A DNA stretch of 64,000 nt from NCBI GenBank assembly GCA_964580575.1, contig CAZOLJ010000006.1, positions 825 to 64,824 of the forward strand, in the 5' to 3' direction. Of the stretch, positions 5,653 through 62,241 are shown one piece after another. The translations under genes were made by a program, and so were the position numbers. Numbering within the stretch: the first letter of the stretch is position 1; every line of letters starts with the position of its first letter. This DNA is from an uncultured Desulfobacteraceae bacterium. GTDB taxonomy: Bacteria; Desulfobacterota; DSM-4660; Desulfatiglandales; HGW-15. The notes beneath the pieces were generated by a model, which made no database searches, was not told where the DNA came from, and worked only from the letters and a program-made list of their open reading frames with translations.

Positions 5653-5771
5653 GAAGAGGAGGTGAAAGGATGAAAGAACTCAAAGTCGGATGTGGCAAGC
5701 CGACCGGTTCGACGGTCGGCGGCTCTTCAGAGGAGAAGAAGACAGCGGTAGAAGAGAAAAAGGAGGTCGCC

Positions 5772-38290: not shown

Positions 38291-39604
38291 CTATTCTTCT
38301 TCCTCCTCTTCCCCCTCCTCGTCAAAAACGATCTCATCCCTTTCGTACTGGGCATCCCTCAGGGCATGAGCTTTTTCCACTTCCTCTTGGCTCCAGGGCT
38401 CCACGATGAGCGAGTCGGCCACGAGCTCCCACAGGTATTTGGTCTCGATGTCCAGGCCGAATTCCTTGGTTAGGCCTTTCATGATCTGGTCGCGACAGTT
38501 GTGGCAGGGCGCAATGACCAGTTTCGCTCCTGTGTCCTTGATCTGTTGGGCCTTAACCCTTCCGTAGTAAATCCTCTCGTCCGAATAGGGCATGGCCCAT
38601 GCTCCGCCGCCGGCTCCGCAGCAGTAGTTGTTCATCCGGTTGGGGTCCATGTCGACAAAACGCTCGCAGCACTGCTGGGTGATCCACCTCGGCTCTTCAA
38701 AGTAGCCGTGACCGAAAGCTTTCTGACTCTTCCTGCCATAGTTGCAGGGATCATGCACGGTCGCGAGTTCCTCATGGATCGTTTTATCCAATTTGATTCT
38801 TCCCGTCTCGATGTATTCTTTGAGAAGATCGTGAACGGAGACGACCTTGTATTTCTTGAAAACTTCGGGATACCAGTTTTGCAGACCAAGCCTGGTCGCA
38901 TAGTAGGCGTGCCCTCACTCCGGCAAAAGGAGCGTCTTGCACTCCAGCCTTTCCATGTGTTCGACGATGCGGCCCACGAGCGTCTTCATGGACTCGTCAT
39001 CGCCCGAGAAGAGGCCCCAGTTCACTCCCTCCCAGTTGTAGGAGGGCACGGTCCAGTCCTCCTTGGCCGCATAAAAAATGCGCCACCAGAATTTCATGTC
39101 ATCGGGCTCGCCGAAAGGCTCCTTGGAATTGACGGTGATCAGCACATTGGCACCCTTTTTGTCCACAGGCACATAGAACCCTGGGAAACCATCCGCTTCA
39201 AGCTCTTTGCCCAGGTCGGCGAGAAGAAAAAGGAAATCCGCCTTGGGAATCCCAAGGTTGTTCCCCCTGTTCAGATCCATGACCACGCCCTTGTGGATAG
39301 GGCCGGGGACCTTGTCTCTCGCGCGAAGGGTCCTGGCCCTTCGCATCATCTTGAGGATTTCCACGCCCTGGGGACAGGCGTATTCGCAACGGCCGCACAG
39401 GGTGCAGATCCAGGGGAACCTCGAATCAATGAGCTCCTGGTCCAATCCCAGGGCAGCCATACGCACGGCCTTACGCGGGTCCATGTTGTCGACGCCGGTA
39501 ACCGGGCAACCGCTGGCGCAGGTGCCGCAGGTGAAACAGACATCCGCCCACTCGGGAGACACTCTCAGTTTGCTTTCTTTACGGTTAATCACAACGGGTT
39601 CCAT
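38291..39604 (-). CDS. HdrD/DsrK/GlpC-like Fe-S (CCG-domain) oxidoreductase with selenocysteine (UGA at 38915-38917 recoded)
   Basis: Track ORFs 38915-39604 and 38291-38791 are in one frame. Translating through gives '...KTLLLPE-U-GHAYYATRLGLQNWYPEVF...'. The N-terminus has 2x[4Fe-4S] (CxxCxxCxxxCP); the C-terminus has 'NYCCGAGGG' and 'PCHNC' (CCG domain). Hairpin GACCA-GGCU-UGGUC lies 17 nt after the UGA (plus coordinates 38884-38897). Acidic poly-E tail. Confidence 0.8.
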
Positions 39605-39701: not shown

Positions 39702-40091
39702 CTAACGGCTCAGGAATTTCTTGATCTGCGCAAGAAGTTTTTCTTTGTCCACGGGTTTGTCAAAAAAGGCGTCAGGGCTGAAGTACTCGTCGTCCCTCTC
39801 CTTTTCATATCGGACCCCCAACTCGTCCGCCATGCCTGAAATCCCGATGACGGGGGTGTTCTTGAGATCAGGGTCTGTTTTGATCCGCTTGCAGACTTCA
39901 AAACCCGAATACAAGGTCTCCATCATCACATCGAGCAGGACGAGGTCCGGATGCTCTTTTTGAGCCAATTCGACACCCTTCTTCCCGTCTTGTGCGGTCA
40001 GTGTTGCGAAACCATTGCGTTTCAAAAATGTTTCGGTGGTGAAAAGGAAATCGGGGTTGTCATCGATGATTAAAATCTTTTTAGATCCCAT
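39702..40091 (-). CDS. Single-domain response regulator (receiver)
   Basis: 'ILIIDDNPD...LLDVMME...K' receiver; 129 aa. Confidence 0.85.
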   Translation of the reverse strand: MGSKKILIIDDNPDFLFTTETFLKRNGFATLTAQDGKKGVELAQKEHPDLVLLDVMMETLYSGFEVCKRIKTDPDLKNTPVIGISGMADELGVRYEKERDDEYFSPDAFFDKPVDKEKLLAQIKKFLSR

Positions 40092-40130
40092 ATTCCTTCC
40101 TCTCTTTTTTCGACACAGACGACCAACGTC

Positions 40131-40982
40131 CTAGTATTCGGAGGGCATTTGTTTGAGCTGCGCCAGAGAAAAGACCGGTCCGTCCTTGCACACGTACTGG
40201 TCTCCAATGTTGCAGCGACCGCAAATGCCGACGCCGCATTTCATGCGCATTTCCAGAGAGAGAATAATCCGCTCCGGGGGAAACCCCAGTTTCTCCAACA
40301 CGGGTTGAGTGAACTTGATCATGACCGGCGGTCCGCACACAATGGCAATGGCGTTTTCCGCGTTCTTAATTTTTCGCTCCGTAATGGTGGGCACAAATCC
40401 CACGTTGTATTTCCAATTCGGATCATTCGTGCTGTCCACGGTGATGTGCATGTGAATGTCGTCCCTCTGCTCCCAGACAGCGAGTTCCTCCTTGTAAAGG
40501 AGCATTCCCGGGCTTCGGGCTCCGTACACCACCATGATGTCCTTGAATCGCGACCGGTTGTCCGGATGAAGCATGTAGACAATGCTGGAGCGAAGGGTGG
40601 TGAAAGCGAAACCGCCGCCCACGATGACCACATTCCTTCCCTCCATCTCCTCCCAGGGGTACCAGTTTCCCAGAGGGCCACGGATCCCCATCACTTCGCC
40701 CTCTTTCATGTTGTGAAGGTAGGTGGTCACCTGGCCGACCTTGTTCACGGTAAAGGCGACAAATCCCTTTTCCGTCGGGGAGGAGGCGATGCCGATCGGG
40801 ATCTCCCCTTTCCCTGCGATGGAGAGCTCTGCAAACTGACCCGGAGTATAGGCGAACTTCCTTTCGTCCTCAGGATCAAGGAAAACGAACCTGAAAGTCT
40901 TCAGGTTCTTGTCTTCGGTCTCCGTGACGATCTTGTCGATTCGGACCGGGTAAGGAAGATAGGGATTTTGCATCAGACTCAT
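40131..40982 (-). CDS. FAD/NAD(P)-binding oxidoreductase with C-terminal 2Fe-2S (PyrK/AsrB/FlxA-like)
   Basis: Ferredoxin-reductase fold ('PGQF..L', 'GPLG', 'V.GGGFA') and C-terminal 'MKCGVGICGRCN'. The start may be the internal Met at 40973. Confidence 0.8.
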   Translation of the reverse strand: MSLMQNPYLPYPVRIDKIVTETEDKNLKTFRFVFLDPEDERKFAYTPGQFAELSIAGKGEIPIGIASSPTEKGFVAFTVNKVGQVTTYLHNMKEGEVMGIRGPLGNWYPWEEMEGRNVVIVGGGFAFTTLRSSIVYMLHPDNRSRFKDIMVVYGARSPGMLLYKEELAVWEQRDDIHMHITVDSTNDPNWKYNVGFVPTITERKIKNAENAIAIVCGPPVMIKFTQPVLEKLGFPPERIILSLEMRMKCGVGICGRCNIGDQYVCKDGPVFSLAQLKQMPSEY

Positions 40983-40996
40983 ACTCCTTCTTCAAT

Positions 40997-41100
40997 CTGG
41001 AGTGATGGAGTGATGGAGTAGTGGAGTGTTGGGTTGAACAATTCAAGAAACCATCGATGACCTTCCATCACTCCAGTGCTCCAATACTCCAGTGCTCCAT
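40997..41100. repeat. Intercistronic hairpin element A built from degenerate 8-nt tandem repeats (TGGAGYRN)
   Basis: Left arm 40997-41033 is CTGGAGTGATGGAGTGATGGAGTAGTGGAGTGTTGGG. Right arm 41065-41100 is CCATCACTCCAGTGCTCCAATACTCCAGTGCTCCAT (inverted copies). 31-nt spacer. Confidence 0.6.
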
Positions 41101-41102
41101 TC

Positions 41103-42140
41103 TTAGTATCCATTCATCAATTCAAACACTTTTCGAATATCGATGTTGACAGGACAAAACTGAACACATCGCCCGCACCCGACGCATGCCGGCCCGTTCC
41201 TATACTTGTCTGCGTAATACTTCAGCTTGTGCATAAACCGCTGCCGGACCCGTTGGAGCTTTTTGTCCCGGGGATTGTGGCCGGACCCGTGCAGGGTGAA
41301 GAGCGGAAACATGCAGGCGTCCCAATTCCGGATCCTGTCCCCTTCTTTTCGGTAGACTTCGTCCTGGATGTCAAAGCACCAGCAGGTGGGACAAAGAAAC
41401 GTGCAGGTTCCGCAGTTGATGCACGCAAAAGAGACCCTCTCCCAGAAAGGGGCATTGAAAAGCTCATTGACCACTTTTCCCCGAAGCTGCTCCGTGGGCA
41501 CCTTGGAGGAGATTTTTTTCTCCGCCGCTCGGGGAAGGCTTAACGCCTTCTTGAGGAGAGCATCGTCGGCCTCTGTTCCGAAATCGACCTTTTCCAGGAA
41601 AGCCTCGCCCTTGGGCGTGAGGCTTCTCACCAGGTAACGGTCGCCCAGGTCGACCATGAGCGCATCCAGGCCTTTCTCGCTGAAGGGGCCGTTTCCCACA
41701 GAGGTGCAAAAGCAGGAGGCACAGGGGTCGTTGCAGCTGAAGCCGACAAGGGTGGTGGACTCCATGCGGCGGACCCACCACGGGTCTTGGAACTGAGGAT
41801 TGTCGAAATTGATCCTCACCAATTCAAAAGCAAAAGCGTCACAAGGCCTTATTCCCACGATCACCTGGGGAGAGAAGTCCTTCGCCGCTTCCTTGACGAC
41901 GTGCGCGTCCTCTTTGCTCTCGTCCAGAGTGTACTCGAACATCCGCTCTGACTGCGGAAGGATAACCGACTTCGGGGAAAGCCTGGTGTTCTGGAACTCA
42001 AAATTGGGCTTTCGACCGTTTTCCAGAAGCCTGAAGTTGTGGAAGTCCCCTTCCTTCACGGGGACAAACACCTTGTAAGCGCTTTGCAACCCTCTCAGTG
42101 CCTCAGTCCACTTTTCCTTGCTAAATGACTTTTTAAGCAT
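41103..42140 (-). CDS. 4Fe-4S dicluster protein (AsrA/FlxB-like)
   Basis: 'CINCGTCTFLCPTCWC' and 'CVGCGRCVQFCPVNI'. ATG at 42140; the track ORF start at 42254 reads through repeat element B. Confidence 0.7.
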   Translation of the reverse strand: MLKKSFSKEKWTEALRGLQSAYKVFVPVKEGDFHNFRLLENGRKPNFEFQNTRLSPKSVILPQSERMFEYTLDESKEDAHVVKEAAKDFSPQVIVGIRPCDAFAFELVRINFDNPQFQDPWWVRRMESTTLVGFSCNDPCASCFCTSVGNGPFSEKGLDALMVDLGDRYLVRSLTPKGEAFLEKVDFGTEADDALLKKALSLPRAAEKKISSKVPTEQLRGKVVNELFNAPFWERVSFACINCGTCTFLCPTCWCFDIQDEVYRKEGDRIRNWDACMFPLFTLHGSGHNPRDKKLQRVRQRFMHKLKYYADKYRNGPACVGCGRCVQFCPVNIDIRKVFELMNGY

Positions 42141-42152
42141 AACGCGAATCCT

Positions 42153-42254
42153 TAGGAGTATTGAATGCTGGAGTATTGGAGTCCTGGAGTGCTGGAGTAG
42201 TGGTGGAATAAAGAAAAAGAGAATATCCAGTACTCCAAGACTCCAGCAATCCAA
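42153..42254. repeat. Intercistronic hairpin element B (TGGAGYRN tandem repeats plus inverted copies)
   Basis: Left 42153-42206: TAGGAGTATTGAATGCTGGAGTATTGGAGTCCTGGAGTGCTGGAGTAGTGGTGG. Right 42227-42257: CCAGTACTCCAAGACTCCAGCAATCCAATCA. Confidence 0.6.
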
Positions 42255-43205
42255 TCATTTGACAAAGTCGTTATAGTCGTCCACTCGGTAAACATCCAGA
42301 GGCGGCCGCTGATCCATGCGGGTTCCGGCCTCCCAGCCGAAGAGCTCAAAAGCATCCTTGTTCAGCTTTTTGGTGAACGGCCTCATGGAGATCCCCACGG
42401 GGCAAACCCGTTCGCAAGCCCCGCAGTCCGTGCACCTTCCGGCACAATGGTAGGCTCGCAAAAAATGAAAGGTCATGGTGTCTACAGGGTCCGTGCTCTT
42501 CCCCACCCACTGGGGCCGCGACTCATCAACAAAGCAGGTCGGACAGTAGCAGAGAGGGCAGGCGTTCCGGCACGCGTAGCATCTGAGGCAGGATGAAATG
42601 AGCTGAGTGAAAAACTTCCGTTTTTCCTCGGGGCTCTTTCTCTCCAACACGTCAACGTCTTTGAAGGCGTTGACGCCCTCTTGTTCCGGCACCGGGTCGG
42701 CGACCATCTCGTCGTATTCCACAGGGTTCCGATGAAGGCAAGTGGAGCAATTGGTCCTCAAGAAATCTTTTTTCTTGAAGGTCTCCTGAAAACCGTTTCC
42801 GCTCACCGTGAAGGAGTCCTTGCTTTCAGTGACCTCCAAAATTTCTTTATTCCCCATCGTCCTCTTCACGGCTCGGTGGTCGATCATGCCGGTGCAGGGA
42901 ACGCCCACGATGTAAAGCTGTTCCCGCTTAATCTGGTTTTCGATGATGTGGGTCACGATGCTTCTGGAATTGCATCCATTGGCCACAATTCCGACGCGGT
43001 CGGTGCGCTTAGTCAGATAATTGCAGAGGTTCAGACCACAGTGGCTGTCCCAGTGAAGCAGGTCCACCTCCGCAGGATGCTTGATCAGCACCGGTTCATT
43101 CATCATGGGCACTGAGCCCTTCTGGTAGCCGATGAAAACGTCGACGGTTCCCTTCTCCAGGAGCTTTCGAGCGATGTCTCTGATTTTCTGAGTATACTCA
43201 AGCAT
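42255..43205 (-). CDS. FrhB/FdhB-N-terminal-like Fe-S protein (FlxC-like)
   Basis: 'CLRCYACRNACPLCYCPTCF' and 'CTDCGACERVCPVGI' with an N-terminal FrhB-like region. ATG overlaps the mvhD stop (TGATG). Confidence 0.7.
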   Translation of the reverse strand: MLEYTQKIRDIARKLLEKGTVDVFIGYQKGSVPMMNEPVLIKHPAEVDLLHWDSHCGLNLCNYLTKRTDRVGIVANGCNSRSIVTHIIENQIKREQLYIVGVPCTGMIDHRAVKRTMGNKEILEVTESKDSFTVSGNGFQETFKKKDFLRTNCSTCLHRNPVEYDEMVADPVPEQEGVNAFKDVDVLERKSPEEKRKFFTQLISSCLRCYACRNACPLCYCPTCFVDESRPQWVGKSTDPVDTMTFHFLRAYHCAGRCTDCGACERVCPVGISMRPFTKKLNKDAFELFGWEAGTRMDQRPPLDVYRVDDYNDFVK

Positions 43206-43636
43206 CAAACCACCTCAGCTCTTTTCTTAACAAGATAAGTTGCCTGACCGGTCTCCTTAACCGCCTTGATGACTTCGGTGGCAACCTCCACGAACTTCGT
43301 TGCTTCGGCAGAGGAAATCCACGAAAAGTGCAGCCTTCCCGGTTCCATCCCCACATGCTCGATCAGATTCTTGAACAGAGCGAACTTGCGTCTTGCGAAG
43401 TAATTACCTTCCAGGTAATGGCAGTCGCCCGGGTGTCACCCGGAAACCCAGACGCCGTCGGCGCCGTGCCGGAAGGCGGCGAGGATGAATTTGGGGCTCA
43501 CCCGGGCAGAGCAGGGCACCCGAATGACCCGGATATTGGATGGGTACTGGAAGCGGCTGACCCCTGCCAGGTCTGCCGCGCCATAGCTGCACCAGTTGCA
43601 CAAGAATGCAGTTATCTTAGGTTGCCAATCGTTCAT
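43205..43636 (-). CDS. mvhD: MvhD/FlxD-like protein with selenocysteine (UGA at 43436-43438 recoded)
   Basis: The track ORF ends at '...[10 protein letters not shown]'. Read-through gives '[23 protein letters not shown]...' to TGA at 43205. The Cys paralogue at 12848 has 'GVYVAGCLEGDCHF'. Hairpin AUUACCU-GGA-AGGUAAU lies 16 nt after the UGA (plus 43403-43419). Confidence 0.8.
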
Positions 43637-43753: not shown

Positions 43754-46700
43754 TCACATTTCATTGATCATGGCCATGATCTGCCCTTCCTCAAATCCCT
43801 TGAGGTTGAGCGCTCCCGAGCGGCAGGACGCCACGCACAGCCCACAGCCCTTGCAGAGCACCGGATTGACCTCCGCCTTTCCCGTGAAAGGGCCCTTCTG
43901 GATAAAGGAGGTCGCCGAATAAGGGCAGATCTCCACACAGACCCCGCAGCTGCTGCAGACGACAGGGGTCGCATAGGCGACCATACCGCTCACCGCGATG
44001 GTCTTTCTGGCCAGCAGGGTGACCGCTCTGGAGGCGGCCGCCTGGGCCTGGGCCACCGACTCATCAATGGGCTTCGGATAGTGGGCCATACCGCAAAGGA
44101 AGACGCCGTCCGTGGCAAACTGGGACGGACCGAGCTTGGCATGAGCCTCCACAAAAAAGCCGTCCTCGCTCAAAGGAACCTTGAAAAACTGGGCAAGCTT
44201 TTCGTCCTTGTAGGGAACAATGGCAGAGGCCAGGGCAAGCAAATCCGCCTTGATCAGGATGGGCCGTTGGAGGACGTGATCCATCACCTCGATCTCAAGG
44301 CCCTCTTTGCCGGCAGAGACTTTCGGTTTCTGTGAAATGGAGAACCGAATGAAGAGGATCCCCGCTTCTCGCGCCTCCCTGTAAAGGAGTTCCCGCTCCC
44401 CGTAGGTTCGGATATCCCGGTTGAGAATGTAAACATCCATGGCTGGGTTCAGTTCTTTGAGGTGGAGGGCGCTCTCGATGGAGTGGGTGCAGCAGACCCT
44501 CGAACAATAAGGCCTTTGGGGTTCGCGCGAACCCACGCATTGGATGAACACGGCTGTTTGAATCTTCTTGATCGACGGATCGCGATCGATGAACCTGCGG
44601 TCGAGCTCCTGGTGAGTCACCACGAGGGGGTGCTTCCCGTAAAGGTATTCCTCGGGCTTGTATTCATAGCATCCCGTGGCGAGCACGGCGATTCCATGTT
44701 CAAGGGTCCCCTGGAGGGTGCTGGACTGAAACGTGGTCTTGAAGCTTCCCACAAAACCTTCGACCTGGGTCAACTCGGCTCCGAGGTGGACCCGGATGTT
44801 TTTATCCCCTTGGACCGATTGCACAAGGCCCCCAAGATTTTTCTGGATATCTTCCCCCTGCCATGTCCTGTAAAGGTTCAGAGCCTGACCGCCCAGTACG
44901 GGAGCTTTCTCGACGATGTCCACCTCATAGCCCTGGTCGCTTAGGGTTTTTGCCGCCACCATACCGGAGATGCCGCCGCCGATCACGAGGGCCCGCTGGT
45001 TGATATCCAGCACGGCCTCTGGGAGGGATTCCATAAGAGCGACCTTGGCCACGGCCATGCGCACGAGGTCCTTGGCTTTGTCCGTCGCCTCCTGAGGATT
45101 GTCTTTGTGAACCCAGGAGTCCTGGTTGCGGATGTTGGTCATCTCGAAGAGATATTTGTTGAGGCCTGCGGTGACCAACGTCTCCTGGAACAGGGCTTCG
45201 TGGGTCTTGGGCGTGCATGCGGCCACCACGATCCGGTTGAGGGTGTTCGCCTTGATCACCTGGGCCATGGTGTCCTGAGTGTCCTGCGAGCAGGAGTAGA
45301 GGTTATCCGCCACGTACTCAACGTAGGGGAGGGTCTTCGCGTAGTCACGCACCGCCGGGACATTCACCACGCTGCCGATGTTGATGCCGCAATTGCAGAC
45401 AAACACTCCGATGCGAGGCCGCTCCCCCCGAATGTCCTTCTGCTCGGGCACTTCTTTCGCCTTGGTCAAGGTATTGCGAGCGCCGCTCAAAAGGGCTCCT
45501 GCCCGGGCAGCGGCCGAACTCGCTTCGATTACGGACTGGGGGATGTCCTTGGGCCCCTGGAAAGCGCCGCACACATAGATGCCTTCCCTGGATGTGGCCA
45601 CCGGAGCGAAGGAACTTGTCCTGCAGAACTGCGACCCTGTGAGGTCGATGCCGAGCTTGTCGGCCAATTCCATGACCTGCGGGGAGGTCTCGAGCCCCAC
45701 GGAGAGGACGACCATGTCAAAAGCCTCCTGGCGAAATTCACCGTCTTCAGTGGCATACTTGACACTGAGATCCTCGGTCAGCGGCATGGCCTCAACGGAG
45801 TGAACGCGGGACCGGATGAACCGAACCCCGTGTTTTTCCCGAGCGGCGTCGTAGTACCTTTCGAACTCCTTCCCGTGGGTCCGCATGTCCATATAGAAGA
45901 TGGCGCAATCGAGATTAGATCCTGAATGCTCCTTGGCGATCACCGCCTCTTTGATGGCATACATGCAGCAGACAGAGGAGCAGTAGGGATGGTCGCATTG
46001 GTGCATGTCCCTGGACCCGACGCACTGGAGCCAAGCGATCTTCTTGGGTTCCTTGTGATCGGACATGCGGGCGAGATGCCCCAGGGTAGGACCGGACGCT
46101 GAAAGGATCCTCTCGAACTCCATGGAAGTGACCACGTTCGGGAGCTTGGCGTAGCTGTAAGTATCGTACTTGGAGGGGTCAAAGGGTTGAAAACCTGGTG
46201 CAAGGATGATCGCTCCCACATCCAGTTCAATGATTTCATCCTTTTGAGAATGATCGATCGCCCCGACACCGCAAAATTCCGCACAGATCTTGCAGCCGCC
46301 GGTCTTGAAATGGATGCACATGCTCCTGTCTATGGCCGGCGTGTTGGGAATAGCCTGAGCGTAGGGAACGTAGATAGGCTTCCGGCCCTTGAGGCCCATA
46401 TCGTATTCGGAAGGAATGGGCTTCACCGAATGTTTGGTGATGTCTTCCAGTCTGATGTGCCCGGTCGGACAGACCGATGCACAGGCCCCGCACCCCATGC
46501 AGAATTCGGTCTGGATGTGAAACGGCGTATCGACCTTCATCTCGGTGCCGCGACCGGTCAGGCTGATGGCGGCATTTCCCATCCTCTCGCAGATCCTGGT
46601 GCAAAGTCCGCAAAGGATACAATCATCGTTCTCTTTCTTGAATCGGGGTTCTTCAAGGTCGTATTTTTTTGCCAGTTCCCTTAGAACGGGGACCTCCGGG

Positions 46701-46987
46701 CAACGGGCCAGAAGCAGCTCCACGAGCAACTTTCGACCCTTGTGAACGGCCTCCGTGTCCGTCTTGACCTCCATGCCTTCCCATATGGGGTAATTGCAGG
46801 ACGTGACAAAACGGGTCCGCCGTCCGTCGAAGACCTCCACAGTGCATAACCGGCACATTCCTGCAGGCTCCAGGGCCTTGTGGTGGCACAAAGTCGGGAT
46901 CTCGATCCCATATTTTTGTGCAATCTGGAGGATGTATTGTCCCTCTTCTCCTTGGACCGTTTTTCCGTTCATCTTGAAAGTAATCAT
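43754..46987 (-). CDS. Fusion protein: NuoG-N-terminal-like (2Fe-2S plus Fe-S) and HdrA-like flavoprotein lacking the first HdrA N-terminal module
   Basis: N-terminal 'MITFKMNGK......CHH....P.G.CR.C.VEV' (Fer2_4/NuoG type). Then HdrA body 'FERILSASGPTLGH...WLQCVGSRD...YCSSVCCMYAIKEA', a second Rossmann 'VIGGGISGM' and C-terminal 2x[4Fe-4S]. Confidence 0.85.
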   Translation of the reverse strand: MITFKMNGKTVQGEEGQYILQIAQKYGIEIPTLCHHKALEPAGMCRLCTVEVFDGRRTRFVTSCNYPIWEGMEVKTDTEAVHKGRKLLVELLLARCPEVPVLRELAKKYDLEEPRFKKENDDCILCGLCTRICERMGNAAISLTGRGTEMKVDTPFHIQTEFCMGCGACASVCPTGHIRLEDITKHSVKPIPSEYDMGLKGRKPIYVPYAQAIPNTPAIDRSMCIHFKTGGCKICAEFCGVGAIDHSQKDEIIELDVGAIILAPGFQPFDPSKYDTYSYAKLPNVVTSMEFERILSASGPTLGHLARMSDHKEPKKIAWLQCVGSRDMHQCDHPYCSSVCCMYAIKEAVIAKEHSGSNLDCAIFYMDMRTHGKEFERYYDAAREKHGVRFIRSRVHSVEAMPLTEDLSVKYATEDGEFRQEAFDMVVLSVGLETSPQVMELADKLGIDLTGSQFCRTSSFAPVATSREGIYVCGAFQGPKDIPQSVIEASSAAARAGALLSGARNTLTKAKEVPEQKDIRGERPRIGVFVCNCGINIGSVVNVPAVRDYAKTLPYVEYVADNLYSCSQDTQDTMAQVIKANTLNRIVVAACTPKTHEALFQETLVTAGLNKYLFEMTNIRNQDSWVHKDNPQEATDKAKDLVRMAVAKVALMESLPEAVLDINQRALVIGGGISGMVAAKTLSDQGYEVDIVEKAPVLGGQALNLYRTWQGEDIQKNLGGLVQSVQGDKNIRVHLGAELTQVEGFVGSFKTTFQSSTLQGTLEHGIAVLATGCYEYKPEEYLYGKHPLVVTHQELDRRFIDRDPSIKKIQTAVFIQCVGSREPQRPYCSRVCCTHSIESALHLKELNPAMDVYILNRDIRTYGERELLYREAREAGILFIRFSISQKPKVSAGKEGLEIEVMDHVLQRPILIKADLLALASAIVPYKDEKLAQFFKVPLSEDGFFVEAHAKLGPSQFATDGVFLCGMAHYPKPIDESVAQAQAAASRAVTLLARKTIAVSGMVAYATPVVCSSCGVCVEICPYSATSFIQKGPFTGKAEVNPVLCKGCGLCVASCRSGALNLKGFEEGQIMAMINEM

Positions 46988-47009
46988 CGGTCAAATCCTT
47001 TTTTCCGCA

Positions 47010-48911
47010 CTATCCCACGACAATGGCATCGAACTTACAGGCGTCGTAGCAGATCCCGCACTTGACGCACTTTCCTTGGTCCAGTTGATGAACCTTTTTC
47101 TTGTCCCCCGCGATGGCTTCCTGGGGACACTTGAGAGCACACACGTGACACCCTGTGCAGGCCTGCTCGTCCACCTCATAGTGAAAGAGGGGTTTGCAGA
47201 CCCCAGCAAAGCATTTTTTGTCCTTAATGTGGGCCTCGTACTCATCACGAAAGTAGAGAATGGTGGTGAGAACCGGATTGGGAGCCGAGGTGCCCAGCCC
47301 GCAGAGGGAAAACTTCTGGATCATGCTCCCCAACTCTTCGAGCAGCTCGATGTCGCCTTCTTTACCCCTGCCCTCACAGATGCCCGTGAGCACATCGAGC
47401 ATTTGCTTGATTCCCTCCCGACAAGGGGTGCACTGGCCGCAGGATTCGCCGTTGAGAAAGTCAAGAAAGTAACGGGCCAGATCCACCATGCAAGTGTCCT
47501 GATCCATGACGATCATGCCGCCGGAGCCCATCATGGAACCTACCTTGGTCAGTTCATCAAAATCGACTTGAAGATCCAGGAACGCCTCCGGGATACAGCC
47601 CCCAGAAGGCCCTCCGGTCTGAACAGCCTTGAATTTTCGCTTTTTGGGAATCCCCCCTCCCATGTCGAAAATGATCTCCCGCAGAGGAGTGCCCATCGGC
47701 ACTTCAACCAGGCCGGTATTCTTCACTTTTCCAACGAGGCTGAACACCTTGGTGCCTTTGCTGTATTTCGTTCCCATGCCGGCGTACCATTCGGCCCCTT
47801 TGAGCATGATGACGGGAACGTTTGCGTAGGTTTCGACGTTGTTGAGATTGGAGGGACCGTCCCTGAATCCCTTTTCCACCGTGTGAACATACTTGGCCCT
47901 CGGTCTCCCAACCTTCCCCTGCAGCGAGGCCATGAGGGCTGTGGATTCTCCGCAAACGAATGCGCCAGCCCCGGTGGAGATCTTGATGCTGAAGCTGAAC
48001 CCGGAACCTGCGATGTTGTCCCCGAGCAACCCGAGATCCTCCGCTTGCCGGATGGCGTTGACGAGACGCTTCACCGCCAGTGGATACTCATTGCGCACAT
48101 AGATGTAGCCCTGAGCCGATCCAATGGCGTAGGCCGCTATCAGCATTCCTTCCAGGACGCTGTGGGGATCTCCCTCCAGCACACTCCTGTCCATATAAGC
48201 CCCTGGGTCGCCCTCATCGGCATTACAGATGACATACCGCTCTCCGCGGTGTTTGCGACAGCTCTCCCATTTTATTCCCGTAGGAAATCCGCCGCCGCCC
48301 CGACCCCTCAGACCGGACTTCTTGATGCTTGTGATGATATCCTCAGGTTTCATTTCAGCGAGGACACGGGTGAAAGCGAAATAGCCTCCTCTCCCAATAT
48401 ATTCCTGGACGCTCTGAGGATCGATGTAGCCGCAATTGCGCAAGGCGACCTTGACTTGCCGAGAATAAAACGGGATTTCTTCCAAGAAGGGGATCGCTTT
48501 GAGGGGTTTCACCTTTTCGAGGGGGTTCCGGATGTCTTCCTCAAGGACGGATCGGGGGTCTCGCATCTGGCCAAGGATCAACTTCTTGCTGAACTTCTCT
48601 TCCGTGTAGTCTTGAACAACATCCAAGACCCTATCCTCGGTCACCCGTTTGTACACGACCCTCGGTCGCCCCTTTGCCACTATCTCCACCAGAGGCTCTT
48701 CTTCGCAAAAGCCGAGACAACCGGTTTGCCGAACTTGAAAAGAGTGAGCTTCAGGATACTCTTTCAGCGCTTTTTCGAAGGTCGCTTTGGCTCCGGCAGC
48801 GATCCCGCAGGACGCCATTCCCACATTGAGCATCATGGTCTCTGGGTAGTAGAGTTTCTGACTATACTCTGAAGTGATCTTTTCCAGATCTTTCACCGAG
48901 TGGATTTTCAT
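47010..48911 (-). CDS. NuoF/HydB-like NADH-binding FMN Fe-S flavoprotein
   Basis: 'GRGGGGFPTG.KW' (FMN), 'CNADEGDPGA', 'ESCGQCTPCREG' and C-terminal 2x[4Fe-4S] ferredoxin motifs; 633 aa. Confidence 0.9.
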   Translation of the reverse strand: MKIHSVKDLEKITSEYSQKLYYPETMMLNVGMASCGIAAGAKATFEKALKEYPEAHSFQVRQTGCLGFCEEEPLVEIVAKGRPRVVYKRVTEDRVLDVVQDYTEEKFSKKLILGQMRDPRSVLEEDIRNPLEKVKPLKAIPFLEEIPFYSRQVKVALRNCGYIDPQSVQEYIGRGGYFAFTRVLAEMKPEDIITSIKKSGLRGRGGGGFPTGIKWESCRKHRGERYVICNADEGDPGAYMDRSVLEGDPHSVLEGMLIAAYAIGSAQGYIYVRNEYPLAVKRLVNAIRQAEDLGLLGDNIAGSGFSFSIKISTGAGAFVCGESTALMASLQGKVGRPRAKYVHTVEKGFRDGPSNLNNVETYANVPVIMLKGAEWYAGMGTKYSKGTKVFSLVGKVKNTGLVEVPMGTPLREIIFDMGGGIPKKRKFKAVQTGGPSGGCIPEAFLDLQVDFDELTKVGSMMGSGGMIVMDQDTCMVDLARYFLDFLNGESCGQCTPCREGIKQMLDVLTGICEGRGKEGDIELLEELGSMIQKFSLCGLGTSAPNPVLTTILYFRDEYEAHIKDKKCFAGVCKPLFHYEVDEQACTGCHVCALKCPQEAIAGDKKKVHQLDQGKCVKCGICYDACKFDAIVVG

Positions 48912-48932
48912 GTTTCAGCCTCTTGTTGGATC

Positions 48933-49430
48933 CTATTCGTATCCGCCCAGGATTTTCGTGGCTTCATCAGGGGACAGCCGGGCGTGAACAGCCTCATTAA
49001 TTTTGACTACAGGTCCGAGACTGCAGCAGCCGATGCAGCGCACGGATTCAAGGGTGAAGCGTCCGTCTCCCGTGGTCTGCCCATCATGGATATGCAACTG
49101 TTCTTGTATCTGCTCATGAACCCGCTTGGCCCCTCTGACATGGCACGCTGTCCCCAGGCAAACCGTAATCAGATTGCGTCCGCGCGGCTCCAGGCTGAAG
49201 GTAGCGTAGAACGTCGCAATTCCATAGATCTGACTCAGGGGAACACCGACTTTTTCCGCAAGATAGGTGAGGCTTGGTCTAGGGAGGTAATTGTAGCGCC
49301 TCTGTATGGCCTGAAGCATCATGATCAGATTTTCTTTGTCATTGCCAAATTGGGATTCGATCAAATTGTCCAGTTCAAAGTAATCCAATTCATCGGCAGA
49401 AGCAGTCTGCACCGGACGCACCTCATTCAT
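48933..49430 (-). CDS. NuoE/HoxE-like 2Fe-2S thioredoxin-fold subunit
   Basis: 'VCLGTACHVRGA' and 'CIGCCSLGPV'; 165 aa. Confidence 0.9.
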   Translation of the reverse strand: MNEVRPVQTASADELDYFELDNLIESQFGNDKENLIMMLQAIQRRYNYLPRPSLTYLAEKVGVPLSQIYGIATFYATFSLEPRGRNLITVCLGTACHVRGAKRVHEQIQEQLHIHDGQTTGDGRFTLESVRCIGCCSLGPVVKINEAVHARLSPDEATKILGGYE

Positions 49431-55157: not shown

Positions 55158-55364
55158 CCTTTTTGTGGCTCCTTAAAGGTCCCTGTTAAGCGAATACGCA
55201 TCTCCGAGAGCGCGCTGAGAAGCCCCTTTGTACAGGCCCCTCTACAAAATCATGGTAGGCCAGTGAGGATCTAAAATCAAGAAGGAACAGGCTCGGGAGG
55301 TTGGGAAGGCTCCGGATGGTCTCGGGGCCTGGCGAAGGACCACAGAGGCCCTCCGAGGGCGTCC

Positions 55365-56441: not shown

Positions 56442-56488
56442 GGTCCTGAACTCTCCGGCTGGTGCGAACCCTCAAGGTCCGGTTGGCC

Positions 56489-56881: not shown

Positions 56882-57022
56882 CTGCGTTTCCCTCCATGAA
56901 ATCATGTTGCTTCGCTCGATGATTTCATCATGCGCGACTACGTCGCTTGTTAATTTGGATAAACGCCTGTGCCTTTGTGAAGCGGCGCAGCCGCGTTTCA
57001 TGAAATCGCGTGAGCGATTTTA

Positions 57023-57526: not shown

Positions 57527-57550
57527 CCCCTCTCAAAAGAAATGATGTTT

Positions 57551-60245: not shown

Positions 60246-61529
60246 CTACTCCTCCTCTTCTTCCTCCTTGGGAATCATGTGTTCCGGGATCTCCATGTGC
60301 TCGGCGATCACTTCCTTGAAGTGGACGGCCTTGATGTCGAGCTTGTGCTCCTTGGCCAGGTCCCGGATCTGGTCGATGCAGTTGTGGCAGGGCACCAGAA
60401 CGATCTTGGCGCCTGTTTCGCGGATCTGCTCGGCCTTGATCTTTCCCGAAGCCAGGCGGTACTTTTTCATTTCACCGCCCATGGGCATGGCCCCGCCGCC
60501 GCCCCCGCAACAGTAGTTGTAGTTGCCCTGGTACTTCATGGGGCGGAAATCCTCCGACACCATTTCAGCCAGATGCCGGTTTTTCTCTGCGAGTCCTCCG
60601 CTCCGGATGACATTGCAGGGGTCCTGGACCGTGGTGGGCACTTTGATCTTCTCTTTGAGCTTGATCCGGCCGTCCCTGAGGTAATCGTGGAAGAGTTCCA
60701 CCGAGTGAATCACTTCCTGCTTTGGCTCGTATCCCAACCAGGTGGGCGCTTCGTACCGAAGCGCACGATACGCGTGTCCTCACTCGGTTATGGCGACTTG
60801 TTTCACCTCCAGTTCCTCGGCGCGCTTGAAGGTGTTTTCAACGATCATGCGAGCGGTAGGCGCATCATTGATGAACATGGCCAGGTTCGTACCGTCCCAT
60901 CCTTTCTCGCTCGGGACAGTCCAGTCCTCCCCGGCGACCGTAAAGATTTTGGCCACCTCCATGATGTCCTGAGGGTAGAACTTGGGCTCCCTGGCATTCA
61001 CCGTGTACATGATTTTGGCGCCCTTCTTGTCGATGGGGATCTTGACGCCCACGACTTCCGCCGCGGCCTCCTCCTCGCACCACTGGATGGTCTCGACCCA
61101 GTCTTCCTTGGACACGGCCATCTGATTGCCGGTGAGCTTGTAGTTTTCGACGGCTTTCTTGAGACCTTCAGGCGCGATTCCCAAGGAGGTCAGCAGGCCC
61201 CGGAGGGTGGAGATGAGAAAGCCGATGTCAATGCCGAAGGGACAGTAGAGGGTGCAGCGCCTGCACATGTTGCACTCATAGTAAATGGTTTTGTAGATCT
61301 CCTGGAGGTACTCCTTGTCCACCCGGCCTTTTTTCTTGAGCAGGTCTCTCAAGAATCTCACTTTGTAGGCGGGGATCATTTTGGGATCTTTCCCGCTCGC
61401 CAGATAGAAGTGGCAGGTGTCGGCGCACATGCTGCAGTGGGTGCAGGTTTCAATCCACGTCTTCAAACGGGCACCCAATCGGGGTTTGAGGAAATCCATG
61501 ATCGCTTTCGGGTTCACGTCTTCAGTCAT
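60246..61529 (-). CDS. DsrK/HdrD-like Fe-S (CCG-domain) protein with selenocysteine (UGA at 60780-60782 recoded)
   Basis: Track ORFs 60780-61529 and 60246-60737 are in frame. Read-through gives '...KQVAITE-U-GHAYRALRYEAPTWLGYEPK...'. 'CTHCSMCADTC' and 'CNMCRRCTLYCP' are N-terminal; 'NYCCGGGGG' and 'PCHNC' are C-terminal. Perfect 8-bp hairpin GCGCUUCG-GUA-CGAAGCGC lies 15 nt after the UGA (plus 60746-60764). Poly-E tail, as in 38291-39604. Confidence 0.8.
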
Positions 61530-61575: not shown

Positions 61576-62241
61576 CTATATTGAGTATCCTCTTCTTCCG
61601 AATTCGATGCCGCTGGCTGCCCGGGAGAAGAAGAAAAGCACGGAGTGGGAGAGTCTTGTAAAAGGGATCAGGATGAGCATGAGCTCTGCAGAGAGAACAT
61701 GGAAGAGCCTCATGTTGTCACCGAGAAACTTGATGCTGTCCAAGGTGCCGTGAGTGAGGAAATAACCGGTCAGAAAGGGGAGAACCGTCACCACGATGAG
61801 GAGGTAATCGCCAGCCGTGGTGAGGAGGCGGAGATCAGGCAACAGTGCCCTTCTCAGGATGAAAAAAATAGCGATCGCAAGAAGGAGCAGCGTCATCCAG
61901 TCCGCCCATTTGTCGGGGATAGAGGACCAGGACCACCCGAAGCGTGACTCCTCCCACAGCGAGACGTGGCCTGCCAGCCAGATGGGCACCACAATGAGGC
62001 AGATGTGAAAGAGGTAGACACAGATAATGAAAACAGGGTTTTTTTTCACCGTCACATTGAGGGGCAGCAGCCACCGGCCCAAGGTGGCGAGAATGTATTT
62101 CACGCTGAAATAATTGTAGAGGGGCTTATCCTTTGTCCTGGCGACAAAGATGAACTGGGCCATGCGGATCAGCGTTCCGATGATGAAAACAAGAAAAGCG
62201 ATCCACAGTAGGGGTCCTTCGGCAAATGAGCTAAAGTCCAT
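61576..62241 (-). CDS. DsrM/HmeC/NarI-like membrane cytochrome b-type subunit
   Basis: Five or six predicted TM helices with conserved His residues ('FHICLI', 'GHVSLW', 'FHVLS', 'LSH'). Immediately upstream of the DsrK-like gene. Confidence 0.7.
   Translation of the reverse strand: MDFSSFAEGPLLWIAFLVFIIGTLIRMAQFIFVARTKDKPLYNYFSVKYILATLGRWLLPLNVTVKKNPVFIICVYLFHICLIVVPIWLAGHVSLWEESRFGWSWSSIPDKWADWMTLLLLAIAIFFILRRALLPDLRLLTTAGDYLLIVVTVLPFLTGYFLTHGTLDSIKFLGDNMRLFHVLSAELMLILIPFTRLSHSVLFFFSRAASGIEFGRRGYSI

What the first reader, a model, noticed from the sequence alone, without database searches (positions are those of the whole stretch)
38291..39604. HdrD/DsrK-like CCG-domain protein with Sec in a '..LLLPE-U-GHAY..' motif; paralogue at 60246-61529 has the same feature
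Both paralogues are split by the ORF track at TGA. Both read '(P/T)E-U-GHAY' at the junction, both have the same domain order (2x[4Fe-4S], Sec segment, CCG domain 'NYCCG.GGG...PCHNC') and both end in a poly-Glu tail. Both have hairpins at 15-17 nt (GACCA-GGCU-UGGUC; GCGCUUCG-GUA-CGAAGCGC). Conservation of the UGA in two diverged paralogues argues strongly against sequencing error. It places Sec near the presumed disulfide-reducing site.
Basis: partly seen in the sequence, partly recalled or inferred. Interest (0 to 1): 0.55.

Follow-up and report, generated by a model that had tools for sequence, protein, structure and literature searches.

The report
Two selenocysteine HdrD/DsrK-like iron-sulfur reductases
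Two genes for iron-sulfur disulfide reductases of the HdrD/DsrK type each carry an in-frame UGA that is almost certainly read as selenocysteine at the enzyme's catalytic cysteine; this selenoprotein family is already catalogued, so the finding is real but not new.

Summary
Minus-strand genes 38291-39604 and 60246-61529 each contain one in-frame TGA (38915-38917 and 60780-60782) in an E-U-G-H-A-Y motif. A hairpin follows each TGA, starting 15-17 nt downstream, with a G-first apical loop.

Full-length homologues have Cys at that column: 118 of 118 for gene 2 and 96 of 120 for gene 1. The same TGA, with long open frames on both sides, occurs in at least 116 GTDB species genomes, mostly Desulfobacterota. 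All 109 distinct Sec-form sequences keep the hairpin, and it shows covariation. The window also holds Sec-MvhD and Sec-peroxiredoxin genes.

The proteins have two ferredoxin-type [4Fe-4S] motifs, a degenerate N-terminal CCG domain and one complete CCG domain. The Sec is the only Cys retained from the lost second cluster site. It is equivalent to Cys329 in the GECGH motif of DsrK, which recent work proposes as a non-ligating catalytic residue.

This is the catalogued "Fe-S oxidoreductase-like (GlpC)" selenoprotein family, which has a UGH motif. Gene 1 sits in a NuoEF-HdrA-MvhD cluster. Gene 2 follows a TmcC/HmcE-like membrane anchor.

Verdict: a real, ordinary new member of a known kind. The link between UGH and DsrK Cys329 is the one modestly new point.

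The parts
38291..39604 (-). Gene 1: a soluble HdrD/DsrK-like Fe-S reductase of 437 codons, with Sec at codon 230 and a poly-Glu C-terminus.
   Evidence: Translation. Pfam Fer4_8 plus CCG. NCBIfam HmcF/TmcB/DsrK-like but below the curated cut-offs. A 96%-identical Sec orthologue with the same synteny occurs in MAG locus L103.
38915..38917 (-). In-frame TGA of gene 1, read as the Sec codon in the motif LLLPE-U-GHAY.
   Evidence: Cys occupies this column in 96 of 120 close full-length homologues.
38881..38899 (-). SECIS-like hairpin of gene 1: GC-GACCA [GGCU] UGGUC-U-GC, with a bulged U and a GG-first apical loop.
   Evidence: The 28-nt fold gives -9.3 kcal/mol, z -2.40. The same hairpin is present in all 109 distinct Sec-form sequences.
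39362..39547 (-). Gene 1 HdrC-like domain carrying two CX2CX2CX3C [4Fe-4S] motifs (C23/26/29/33 and C67/70/73/77).
   Evidence: Pfam Fer4_8, residues 20-81. The profile matches HdrC chains at E 1e-17 to 1e-18.
38903..39142 (-). Gene 1 degenerate N-terminal CCG-like domain. The Cys positions are now S160, N195, W196, U230 and A233, so only the U position is retained.
   Evidence: Alignment to the EtfD 9ojn CPHC motif. Column composition. The HdrB-like fold spans both halves in the model of the gene-2 orthologue.
38483..38761 (-). Gene 1 complete CCG domain (C287, C328, C329, C367, C370). [quoted passage not shown]
   Evidence: Pfam PF02754, residues 282-374. All five Cys are invariant in 120 of 120 homologues.
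60246..61529 (-). Gene 2: an HmcF/TmcB-like Fe-S reductase of 427 codons, with Sec at codon 250 and a poly-Glu C-terminus.
   Evidence: Translation. NCBIfam HmcF 449.7 bits and TmcB 432.8 bits, both below the cut-offs. Sec orthologues of 75-80% identity occur at L092, L048, L049 and L041.
60780..60782 (-). In-frame TGA of gene 2, read as the Sec codon in the motif AITE-U-GHAY.
   Evidence: Cys occupies this column in 118 of 118 full-length homologues. Two public entries (P0160, P0181) stop exactly here at 249 aa.
60746..60764 (-). SECIS-like hairpin of gene 2: GCGCUUCG [GUA] CGAAGCGC.
   Evidence: The 28-nt fold gives -12.5 kcal/mol, z -3.19, with 0 of 200 shuffles as good. Compensatory changes relative to the other subfamilies.
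60366..60632 (-). Gene 2 complete CCG domain (C305, C340, C341, C381, C384).
   Evidence: Pfam PF02754, residues 300-388. The Cys residues are invariant in 118 of 118 homologues.
61576..62241 (-). TmcC/HmcE-family membrane anchor directly upstream of gene 2. It is the likely quinone-side partner of gene 2.
   Evidence: NCBIfam TmcC 211.7 bits (cut-off 240) and HmcE 158.4 bits.
43205..43636 (-). Sec-containing MvhD/VhuD-like gene in the gene-1 cluster, with TGA at 43436-43438 ('VWVSG-U-HPGDCHY').
   Evidence: NCBIfam VhuD 125 bits and the HdrA2 C-terminal region. A hairpin with a GGA loop follows.
43754..49430 (-). Upstream part of the gene-1 cluster: a NuoE-like gene (48933-49430), a NuoF-like gene (47010-48911) and a 1077-aa fusion of a HoxU/NuoG N-terminus with HdrA (43754-46987).
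   Evidence: Pfam and NCBIfam.
39702..43208 (-). Genes between mvhD and gene 1: a 317-aa Fe-S protein, a HydB/AsrA-like gene, a HydG/AsrB-like FAD/NAD gene, and a stand-alone receiver-domain gene (39702-40091).
   Evidence: The gene order is identical in L103.

Best explanation
**What the genes are.** Both genes encode full-length selenoproteins. During translation the UGA is recoded to selenocysteine. A SECIS-type hairpin sits immediately downstream, with its apical loop 22-23 nt after the UGA and a G at the first loop position. In bacteria such a hairpin recruits SelB carrying Sec-tRNA(Sec).

**What the proteins look like.** They belong to the class of HdrD/DsrK/HmcF/TmcB-type reductases that have a single non-cubane cluster. 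An HdrC-like domain carries two cubane [4Fe-4S] clusters and feeds electrons to one non-cubane [4Fe-4S] cluster held by the C-terminal CCG domain. The N-terminal CCG domain has lost four of its five cluster ligands. The one it keeps, the Cys of the E-C-G-H motif (equivalent to DsrK Cys329), is Sec here.

**Inferred chemistry.** The selenolate acts as the non-ligating redox-active nucleophile beside the cluster. It accepts the substrate sulfur as a selenosulfide or perselenide adduct, and the non-cubane cluster then reduces that adduct in one-electron steps. The neighbouring His would serve as a proton relay.

**Inferred partners.** Gene 1 is the disulfide/persulfide-reducing module of a soluble, NADH-linked HdrA-MvhD (NuoEF) electron-bifurcating complex. 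Gene 2 pairs with a TmcC/HmcE-like membrane cytochrome b and links the quinone pool to a cytoplasmic thiol/disulfide or DsrC-like substrate.

**Shown versus inferred.** Shown here: the UGA, the Cys/Sec pairing, the hairpin with covariation, the domain architecture and the gene context. Inferred: actual Se incorporation, the chemistry at Sec, and the physiological substrates.
For: 1. **In-frame TGA.** Each gene has one in-frame TGA with 229/207 and 249/177 open codons on either side.
2. **Cys at the U column.**
   - 118 of 118 full-length gene-2 homologues have Cys in an invariant E-C-G-H-A motif.
   - 96 of 120 gene-1 homologues have Cys.
   - The preceding Glu was not part of the search pattern, yet it is present in nearly all of 121 TGC-form hits from metagenomes.
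3. **Spread of the Sec form.** They fall into several subfamilies, and one is a 96%-identical orthologue.
4. **SECIS hairpin.**
   - 109 of 109 distinct Sec-form sequences have a hairpin of at least 5 bp with G in the first two loop positions at columns 25-28. Only 44% of 115 TGC-form controls do, although the controls have higher GC. Mean dG is -10.5 versus -7.9 kcal/mol, Mann-Whitney p = 4.6e-11.
   - On 111 sequences, 85.7% of cells are paired versus 74.1% in shuffles (0 of 500 as high). 6 of 7 pairs change on both sides. The covariation score is 0.401 versus 0.193 (0 of 500). Slid registers give only 20-61% pairing.
5. **TGA is also an ordinary stop here.** For example, the TGA at 42255-42257 ends the 317-aa gene. 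The genetic code is therefore not reassigned globally.
6. **Other selenoprotein genes in the window.** Sec-MvhD and Sec-Prx are both present.
7. **Fold.** An AF2 model of an 80%-identical Cys orthologue has pLDDT 92.4. It matches EtfD (TMq 0.67) and full-length HdrB (TMt 0.60-0.65). The Cys sits at the N-terminus of a helix just after a beta-strand, mirroring C381 of the intact CCG domain.
8. **Literature.**
   - The family is listed with Sec motif UGH (PMC13188914; PMC1794560).
   - DsrK Cys329, in the GECGH motif, is conserved in HmcF and TmcB and proposed to be catalytic (PMC10861901).
   - Cryo-EM shows it as a non-ligating residue carrying a persulfide next to the single non-cubane cluster, with His331 as proton relay (bioRxiv 10.64898/2026.08.25.746951).
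Against: - The window contains no tRNA-Sec, and no selA/B/D was found among the ORFs scanned. The organism's Sec machinery is therefore inferred from its four Sec-type genes, not observed.
- Rfam reports no SECIS family in the window.
- RNAalifold returns no consensus structure on the mixed alignment, because the subfamilies use two stem registers.
- The 60-nt folds are only weakly better than shuffles, with z -1.1 and -1.9.
- 44% of the Cys-form controls also have a hairpin at the same place.
- In the gene-1 clade, 24 of 120 close homologues carry S, G, L, I, T, A, V or Y at the column. The codons are genuine (TCG, GGC, CTG, ATC). A thiol or selenol is therefore not indispensable in every member, which weakens the 'essential catalytic nucleophile' reading for gene 1.
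- No coordinates were available from the model, so the distance between Sec and the cluster ligands was not measured.
- Substrates are unknown, and neither protein reaches the NCBIfam cut-offs for HmcF, TmcB or DsrK.
Confidence: 0.88

Rival explanations
1. The TGAs are true stops. Each locus would then be a pseudogene, or a split gene making a separate ferredoxin-like N-terminal protein and a separate CCG protein.
For: ORF callers split both genes. Public databases hold 249-aa entries that end exactly at gene 2's TGA (P0160 and P0181). No Sec machinery is visible in the window.
Against: - The first possible start codon after the TGA is 41 codons downstream in gene 1 (TTG at 38791) and 14 codons downstream in gene 2 (TTG at 60737). 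Yet the intervening peptide (GHAYYATRLGL... and GHAYRALRYEAP...) is strongly conserved at the protein level in full-length homologues.
- The same TGA is kept in at least 116 species genomes, with both flanks open and conserved.
- A covarying hairpin follows the TGA in 109 of 109 Sec-form sequences.
Confidence: 0.04
2. The UGA is read through as a standard amino acid (Trp, Cys or Gly), either by near-cognate suppression or because the organism has reassigned the codon. Selenocysteine would not be involved.
For: Sequence alone cannot show what is inserted. No tRNA-Sec or sel genes lie in the window.
Against: - TGA ends ordinary genes in the same window, for example at 42255-42257 and 46991-46993. 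It is therefore not reassigned.
- All four internal TGAs fall at positions that align with catalytic or redox Cys residues in known selenoprotein families: Prx CP, MvhD and the UGH family.
- Each is followed by a SECIS-like hairpin with a G-first loop.
- The family is already catalogued as a selenoprotein.
Confidence: 0.04
3. Sec is inserted, but it works as a ligand of the non-cubane cluster's special iron, or as a structural residue, and not as a free nucleophile. Alternatively gene 1 is mainly a redox sensor or regulator and not an enzyme.
For: - PMC10861901 raised the possibility that the conserved Cys binds the cluster and produces the 'open' EPR-active state.
- The closest relatives of gene 1 carry an N-terminal HTH_17 DNA-binding domain.
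- Gene 1 follows a receiver-domain gene.
- 20% of the clade has lost the Cys.
Against: - The cryo-EM preprint describes Cys329 as non-ligating and persulfidated.
- Gene 1 itself lacks the HTH domain.
- Gene 1 and its HTH-fused relatives are embedded in hdrA-mvhD redox operons.
Confidence: 0.15

Closest known systems
'Fe-S oxidoreductase (GlpC)' / 'Fe-S oxidoreductase-like protein' bacterial selenoprotein family (Zhang et al. 2006, PMC1794560; 2026 review PMC13188914; Sec motif UGH)
   Same: - Both window genes show the same U-G-H motif, a single Sec, and an Fe-S/CCG oxidoreductase architecture.
- The taxonomic range is the same (Deltaproteobacteria/Desulfobacterota).
[quoted passage not shown]
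   Different: - In the gene-1 cluster, NuoE/NuoF and AsrAB/HydBG-like genes replace the hydrogenase subunits.
- Gene 1 lacks the N-terminal HTH domain of its closest relatives.
- Gene 2 belongs to a different clade (HmcF/TmcB-like, with a membrane anchor). I could not show that this clade was among the originally described members.
- The 'GlpC' label is only a COG-style name. True GlpC models score 22-44 bits against cut-offs of about 278-280.
[quoted passage not shown]
   Same: - Two cubane [4Fe-4S] motifs and exactly one complete CCG motif.
- One Cys retained from the lost second cluster site, within an E-C-G-H motif. Here it reads E-U-G-H.
- Gene 2 has a TmcC/HmcE-type membrane partner in hmcE-hmcF gene order.
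   Different: - Both window proteins fall below the NCBIfam equivalog cut-offs: HmcF 449.7/750, TmcB 432.8/735 and DsrK 192.5/400 for gene 2, and lower for gene 1.
- No periplasmic cytochrome c or DsrJOP/HmcABCD genes lie beside gene 2.
- The last Cys of the CCG motif is Cys here, whereas A. fulgidus DsrK has Asp500.
- Sec replaces Cys.
- Neither DsrK paper mentions selenocysteine.
HdrB/HdrC and HdrD of methanogen heterodisulfide reductase (PDB 5ODC, 7BKB)
   Same: - The HdrC-like ferredoxin domain matches at E 1e-17 to 1e-18.
- The HdrB-like two-lobed fold gives TMt 0.60-0.65 over about 290 columns.
- The CCG motif is shared.
   Different: HdrB and HdrD have two complete CCG motifs and two non-cubane clusters, which cleave the heterodisulfide homolytically. 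The window proteins have one cluster plus a selenol.
Sec-containing HdrD4 and HdrF2 of Desulfobacterium autotrophicum HRM2 (PMC2702500)
   Same: These are HdrD-type proteins with HdrC- and HdrB-like domains, annotated as selenoproteins in a Desulfobacteraceae genome that is rich in Sec-HdrA and Sec-MvhD.
   Different: I did not retrieve those sequences, so orthology and the position of Sec were not compared. HdrF2 also has fused transmembrane helices, which the window proteins lack.
Mycobacterium smegmatis EtfD (PDB 9OJN)
   Same: It is the best structural match (TMq 0.67, 380 columns) and the best sequence match (E 2e-20) in the PDB. Its 'VVTCPHCF' motif aligns with 'ITE-U-GHAY'.
   Different: EtfD is a 1042-aa membrane-fused protein and keeps the CxxC pair of its N-terminal CCG domain. 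It has no Sec.

Membership tests
Bacterial selenoprotein gene (UGA recoded to Sec) | An in-frame UGA with the conserved coding frame continuing on both sides. | tested here: met
   The peptide between the TGA and the next possible start codon is conserved in homologues.
Bacterial selenoprotein gene (UGA recoded to Sec) | Homologues carry Cys at the aligned position. | tested here: met
   Gene 2: 118 of 118 have Cys. Gene 1: 96 of 120 have Cys and the rest have S/G/L/I/T/A/V/Y.
Bacterial selenoprotein gene (UGA recoded to Sec) | [quoted passage not shown] The bSECISearch criteria are quoted from memory as a loop 16-37 nt from the UGA. | tested here: met
   The loop starts 22-23 nt after the UGA. 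109 of 109 Sec-form sequences have it against 44% of Cys-form controls. Covariation supports it. z is -2.4 and -3.2. Rfam found nothing.
Bacterial selenoprotein gene (UGA recoded to Sec) | selA, selB, selC and selD are present in the genome. | not testable with these tools
   The window has no tRNA and no sel genes among the scanned ORFs. Only 64 kb of the genome is available. Indirect support comes from two further Sec-type genes, MvhD and Prx.
Bacterial selenoprotein gene (UGA recoded to Sec) | Selenium is demonstrably incorporated into the protein. | not testable with these tools
   This needs 75Se labelling or mass spectrometry.
'Fe-S oxidoreductase-like (GlpC)' selenoprotein family | A single Sec in a U-G-H motif within an Fe-S oxidoreductase. 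| tested here: met
   Both genes read E-U-G-H-A-Y. The review table lists 'UGH, 1 Sec' for this family.
'Fe-S oxidoreductase-like (GlpC)' selenoprotein family | Operon association with hdrA and frhD/mvhD. | tested here: met
   Met for gene 1, which shares a cluster with an HdrA fusion and Sec-MvhD. Not met for gene 2, which follows a membrane anchor and precedes histidine-kinase genes.
DsrK/HmcF/TmcB class (HdrD-like, single non-cubane cluster) | Two CX2CX2CX3C motifs and exactly one complete CXnCCGXnCX2C motif. | tested here: met
   Pfam finds one CCG hit per protein. The five CCG Cys and eight ferredoxin Cys are invariant. The N-terminal CCG positions are S, N, W, U and A.
DsrK/HmcF/TmcB class (HdrD-like, single non-cubane cluster) | A conserved (T/G)ECGH motif holding the one Cys kept from the lost cluster site. 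| tested here: met
   The motifs are PE-U-GH (gene 1) and TE-U-GH (gene 2). The motif is defined in PMC10861901.
DsrK/HmcF/TmcB class (HdrD-like, single non-cubane cluster) | A membrane cytochrome b partner of the DsrM/HmcE/TmcC type. | tested here: met
   Met for gene 2: a TmcC/HmcE-like gene at 61576-62241 scores 211.7 bits, just under the cut-off of 240. Not met for gene 1, which has only soluble partners.
HmcF, TmcB or DsrK proper (NCBIfam equivalogs) | A score above the curated equivalog cut-off. | tested here: not met
   Gene 2 scores HmcF 449.7/750, TmcB 432.8/735 and DsrK 192.5/400. Gene 1 scores 213/750, 190/735 and 166/400.
HdrD/HdrB (canonical heterodisulfide reductase) | Two complete CCG motifs, giving two non-cubane clusters. 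| tested here: not met
   Only one CCG domain is found. Four of the five N-terminal ligand positions are not Cys.
GlpC (anaerobic glycerol-3-phosphate dehydrogenase subunit C) | A match to the GlpC equivalog models. | tested here: not met
   Scores are 22-44 bits against cut-offs of 278-280.

The most novel reading that the evidence does not exclude
The long-catalogued but functionally uncharacterised 'UGH' selenoprotein motif is the E-C-G-H motif of reductases in the DsrK family. [quoted passage not shown] The papers I could read do not appear to make this link. The two DsrK mechanism papers never mention selenocysteine, and the selenoproteome review calls the family's function uncharacterised.

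If the link is indeed unmade, three things follow:
- The natural Sec variants are independent evolutionary evidence that this residue is a redox-active nucleophile.
- They offer a built-in Se probe (77Se NMR/EPR, Se EXAFS, anomalous scattering) for the persulfide intermediate.
- Gene 2 represents a membrane-linked HmcEF/TmcBC-like Sec subfamily whose public entries are annotated as truncated 249-aa fragments.
Probability: 0.35. Interest if true: 0.45.

Novelty: new member of a known kind. Interest (0 to 1): 0.3.

Why it matters
**Annotation.** These genes are routinely split or truncated by gene callers. Entries P0160 and P0181 end at the TGA. Reading them correctly restores complete HdrD-like catalytic subunits in two energy-metabolism modules of an uncultured Desulfobacterota organism.

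**Mechanism.** Sec sits exactly at the residue now proposed to carry the sulfur intermediate in DsrK-type enzymes. Sec is normally selected only at catalytically redox-active positions or metal ligands. Its recurrence across several subfamilies therefore supports that proposal and offers a natural selenium handle for spectroscopy.

**Limits.** It does not change the known catalogue of selenoprotein families.

Tried and rejected
- **Rfam, gathering thresholds, whole window.** No SECIS or any other family was reported. The library is not informative for this kind of hairpin.
- **RNAalifold on the 111-sequence alignment.** It returned an empty consensus, because the subfamilies use two stem registers and tri-/tetraloops. 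I replaced it with explicit pair counting and per-sequence folding.
- **PDB sequence searches.** No DsrK, HmcF or TmcB structure is in the copy. Only EtfD, HdrB, HdrC and LutA-like chains came up. The mapping to DsrK Cys329 therefore rests on the motif described in the papers, not on my own structural superposition.
- **AF2 model.** It has high confidence (pLDDT 92.4), but coordinates are not exposed to scripts. The Sec-to-cluster-ligand distance could not be measured.
- **Are other Sec subfamilies true DsrK?** I tested whether the 'NTE-U-GHEF/GHSY/GHMF' and 'LLWPE-U-GHAYL' subfamilies are. None reaches the DsrK, HmcF or TmcB cut-offs.
- **Are the non-Cys residues one-step derivatives of TGA?** I tested this for the gene-1 clade. 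The codons are TCG, GGC, CTG and ATC, so they are not.
- **Whole-code reassignment of TGA.** Considered and rejected, because TGA terminates neighbouring genes.
Full report
**Observation.** On the minus strand, window:38291-39604 translates to 437 codons with one internal TGA at codon 230 ('...ECKTLLLPE*GHAYYATRLGLQNW...'). Window:60246-61529 translates to 427 codons with one internal TGA at codon 250 ('...KQVAITE*GHAYRALRYEAPTW...'). The TGAs are at 38915-38917 and 60780-60782. The ORF lister splits both genes. Each protein has a Fer4_8 dicluster domain and exactly one Pfam CCG domain. Both end in a poly-Glu tail, and they are 35% identical. The quoted hairpins exist, starting 17 and 15 nt after the UGA. 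As 28-nt windows they fold at -9.3 kcal/mol (z -2.40) and -12.5 kcal/mol (z -3.19). The 60-nt folds are weaker, at z -1.1 and -1.9.

**Is the UGA a Sec codon?** Five lines of evidence say yes.

1. *Cys/Sec pairing.* Among the 120 best full-length homologues of gene 2 (two further entries are truncated), 118 of 118 have Cys at the column, within an invariant E-C-G-H-A motif. That is as conserved as the five cysteines of the CCG motif. Among the 120 best homologues of gene 1, 96 have Cys.
116 of these have long open frames on both sides of the TGA. They fall into several subfamilies: LLLPE-U-GHAY, LLWPE-U-GHAYL, NTE-U-GHEF/GHSY/GHMF and ITE-U-GHAYRALR. They come almost entirely from Desulfobacterota, including isolates such as Desulfopila sp. 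IMCC35008, Desulfogranum marinum, Desulfonema magnum and Desulfacinum hydrothermale. One MAG locus, L103, encodes a 96%-identical orthologue of gene 1 with identical synteny. Gene 2 has Sec orthologues of 75-80% identity.
3. *SECIS.* All 109 distinct Sec-form sequences have a hairpin of at least 5 bp whose apical loop starts 22-23 nt after the UGA, with G in the first two loop positions. Only 44% of 115 TGC-form controls from metagenomes have one, even though the controls are more GC-rich. Mean dG is -10.5 versus -7.9 kcal/mol, p = 4.6e-11. On the ungapped 111-sequence alignment the stem (columns 20-26 paired with 30-36) is paired in 85.7% of cells, against 74.1% in shuffles. Six of seven pairs change on both sides, and the covariation score is twice the shuffled mean (0 of 500 shuffles as high). 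Slid registers drop to 20-61%. Gene-1-type sequences use a register shifted by one, with a bulged U.
4. *TGA still works as a stop.* It terminates neighbouring genes in the window, so the code is not reassigned.
5. *Other selenoprotein genes.* The window holds two further genes with TGA at the known Sec position of established selenoprotein families. One is an MvhD/VhuD-like gene ('VWVSG-U-HPGDCHY', 43205-43636). The other is a peroxiredoxin ('[14 protein letters not shown]', 5655-6383).

Against this, the window has no tRNA-Sec or sel genes, Rfam reports nothing, and RNAalifold gives no consensus on the mixed-register alignment.

**What the proteins are.** NCBIfam places both nearest to HmcF, TmcB and DsrK, but below every equivalog cut-off (gene 2: 449.7/750, 432.8/735, 192.5/400). 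A profile of the family matches HdrC chains (E about 1e-17), HdrB (E about 1e-4) and M. smegmatis EtfD (E 2e-20). An AlphaFold2 model of P0121, a Cys orthologue 80% identical to gene 2, has pLDDT 92.4 and pTM 0.90. Foldseek matches it to EtfD (9OJN, TMq 0.67) and to full-length HdrB (5ODC_B and 7BKB_B, TMt 0.60-0.65 over about 290 columns). The region around the Sec is therefore a second, degenerate CCG lobe. In that lobe the five ligand positions are S, N, W, U and A in gene 1. The U aligns with the first Cys of the CxxC pair, as in EtfD 'VVTCPHCF'. In the model the Cys sits at the N-terminus of a helix straight after a beta-strand, mirroring C381 of the intact CCG lobe.

**Mechanism.** Published work on DsrK supplies the framework. 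PMC10861901 notes that DsrK, HmcF and TmcB have only one CCG motif. [quoted passage not shown] It shows Cys329 as a non-ligating residue carrying a persulfide, and His331 as the likely proton relay. The window proteins read E-U-G-H, so the Sec is the counterpart of Cys329. I infer that the selenolate is the nucleophile that takes over the substrate sulfur, and that the non-cubane cluster then reduces the adduct. Neither DsrK paper mentions selenocysteine.

**Context.** Gene 1 is the last gene of a minus-strand cluster. In order, the cluster holds:
- a NuoE-like gene and a NuoF-like gene;
- a 1077-aa fusion of a HoxU/NuoG N-terminus with HdrA;
- Sec-MvhD;
- a 317-aa Fe-S protein;
- HydB/AsrA-like and HydG/AsrB-like genes;
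- a stand-alone receiver gene;
- gene 1.

This points to an NADH-linked, HdrA-based, probably electron-bifurcating complex in which gene 1 replaces HdrBC. From memory, not tested here, it also resembles the BamDEFGHI module of class II benzoyl-CoA reductase. Close relatives of gene 1 have an N-terminal HTH_17 domain and sit in hycI-[HTH-HdrD-like]-hdrA-mvhD-mvhG operons, which is the published 'glpC-hdrA-frhD-frhG-frhA' arrangement. Gene 2 directly follows a TmcC/HmcE-family membrane anchor (211.7 bits, cut-off 240). This resembles an hmcE-hmcF pair, a DsrMK-like quinone-linked module. Histidine-kinase and response-regulator genes lie downstream.

**Comparison with what is known.** 'Fe-S oxidoreductase (GlpC)' has been a listed bacterial selenoprotein family since the mid-2000s. 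It was reported with members in Syntrophobacter fumaroxidans, Desulfotalea psychrophila and Desulfovibrio vulgaris (PMC1794560). It was also found in Olavius symbionts (PMC1976440). A 2026 review lists it with Sec motif 'UGH' and one Sec, among families whose functions 'remain largely uncharacterized' (PMC13188914). The Db. autotrophicum genome paper reports Sec in HdrD4 and HdrF2. The finding is therefore a new member of a known kind. 'GlpC' is a misnomer, because true GlpC models score far below their cut-offs.

**Caveat.** In the gene-1 clade, 24 of 120 close homologues have Ser, Gly, Leu, Ile, Thr, Ala, Val or Tyr at the column. The codons are genuine (TCG, GGC, CTG, ATC), and these genes sit in the same operon type. 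The residue is thus dispensable, or the function has shifted, in part of that clade. In the gene-2 clade the Cys is invariant.

**Verdict.** The feature is a genuine but ordinary pair of selenoprotein genes from a known family. The explicit equivalence of the 'UGH' Sec with the catalytic Cys329 of DsrK-type enzymes is the only modestly new insight. Interest is 0.3.

Noticed in passing
window 5655-6383 (+), TGA at 5916-5918: A peroxiredoxin gene has an in-frame TGA at the peroxidatic Cys position ('[14 protein letters not shown]'). Both halves match AhpC-TSA. It lies next to a catalase (1204-2730) and a MauG/MbnH-like di-haem enzyme (2879-3994), forming an oxidative-stress cluster that includes a Sec-Prx.
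   Followed up: partly
window 43205-43636 (-) and 12848-13291 (+): The window holds a Sec/Cys pair of MvhD-like paralogues. One reads 'VWVSG-U-HPGDCHY' (TGA at 43436-43438) and follows the 1077-aa HdrA fusion. The other reads 'VYVAG-C-LEGDCHF' and follows a second HdrA-like gene (9804-12851, 1015 aa).
   Followed up: partly
P0001-P0108; loci L024, L240-L243: The closest relatives of gene 1 carry an N-terminal HTH_17 (excisionase/MerR-like) DNA-binding domain fused to the HdrD-like reductase. They sit in hycI-[HTH-HdrD-like]-hdrA-mvhD-mvhG operons. Sec forms of this fusion exist, for example in Desulfopila and Desulfotalea. A DNA-binding domain on a presumed catalytic subunit is unexplained.
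   Followed up: partly
window 39702-40091 (-): A stand-alone receiver-domain gene sits directly upstream of gene 1, which lacks the HTH domain of its relatives. The same arrangement occurs in L103. It may be a regulatory substitute for the HTH, but this was not tested.
   Followed up: no
alignment of P0001-P0120 at the U230 column; L240-L243: 24 of 120 close full-length homologues of gene 1 have S, G, L, I, T, A, V or Y at this column, not Cys, in an otherwise conserved 'LLLP(E/D)-x-GHAY' context. The codons checked are TCG, GGC, CTG and ATC. Seeing Sec, Cys and non-redox residues at one column of a single orthologous group is unusual for a selenoprotein.
   Followed up: yes
P0160, P0181 (public protein entries): Near-identical relatives of gene 2 (96% and 91% identity) are deposited as 249-aa proteins that end exactly at the TGA. 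The Sec gene is therefore annotated as truncated in public databases.
   Followed up: partly
loci L120-L239 (metagenome TGC-form controls): 44% of the Cys-form genes also show a hairpin at the same distance downstream of the Cys codon. It could be a remnant SECIS or a by-product of the conserved peptide. The Glu before the Cys is almost universal in these hits, although the search pattern did not require it.
   Followed up: no
window 52298-60180 (-) and 16475-19497 (+), 23149-24417 (-): The window has an unusually high density of PAS histidine kinases, receiver proteins and a sigma-54 activator, including a run immediately downstream of gene 2.
   Followed up: no
loci L048, L061, L111 (record titles): A few Sec-form hits come from MAGs labelled Acidobacteriota, Latescibacterota or Hyphomicrobiales. 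Their proteins are 54-83% identical to those from Desulfobacterota (L048 is 77% identical to gene 2; L061 and L111 are 83% and 54% identical to gene 1). This suggests binning contamination or lateral transfer.
   Followed up: no
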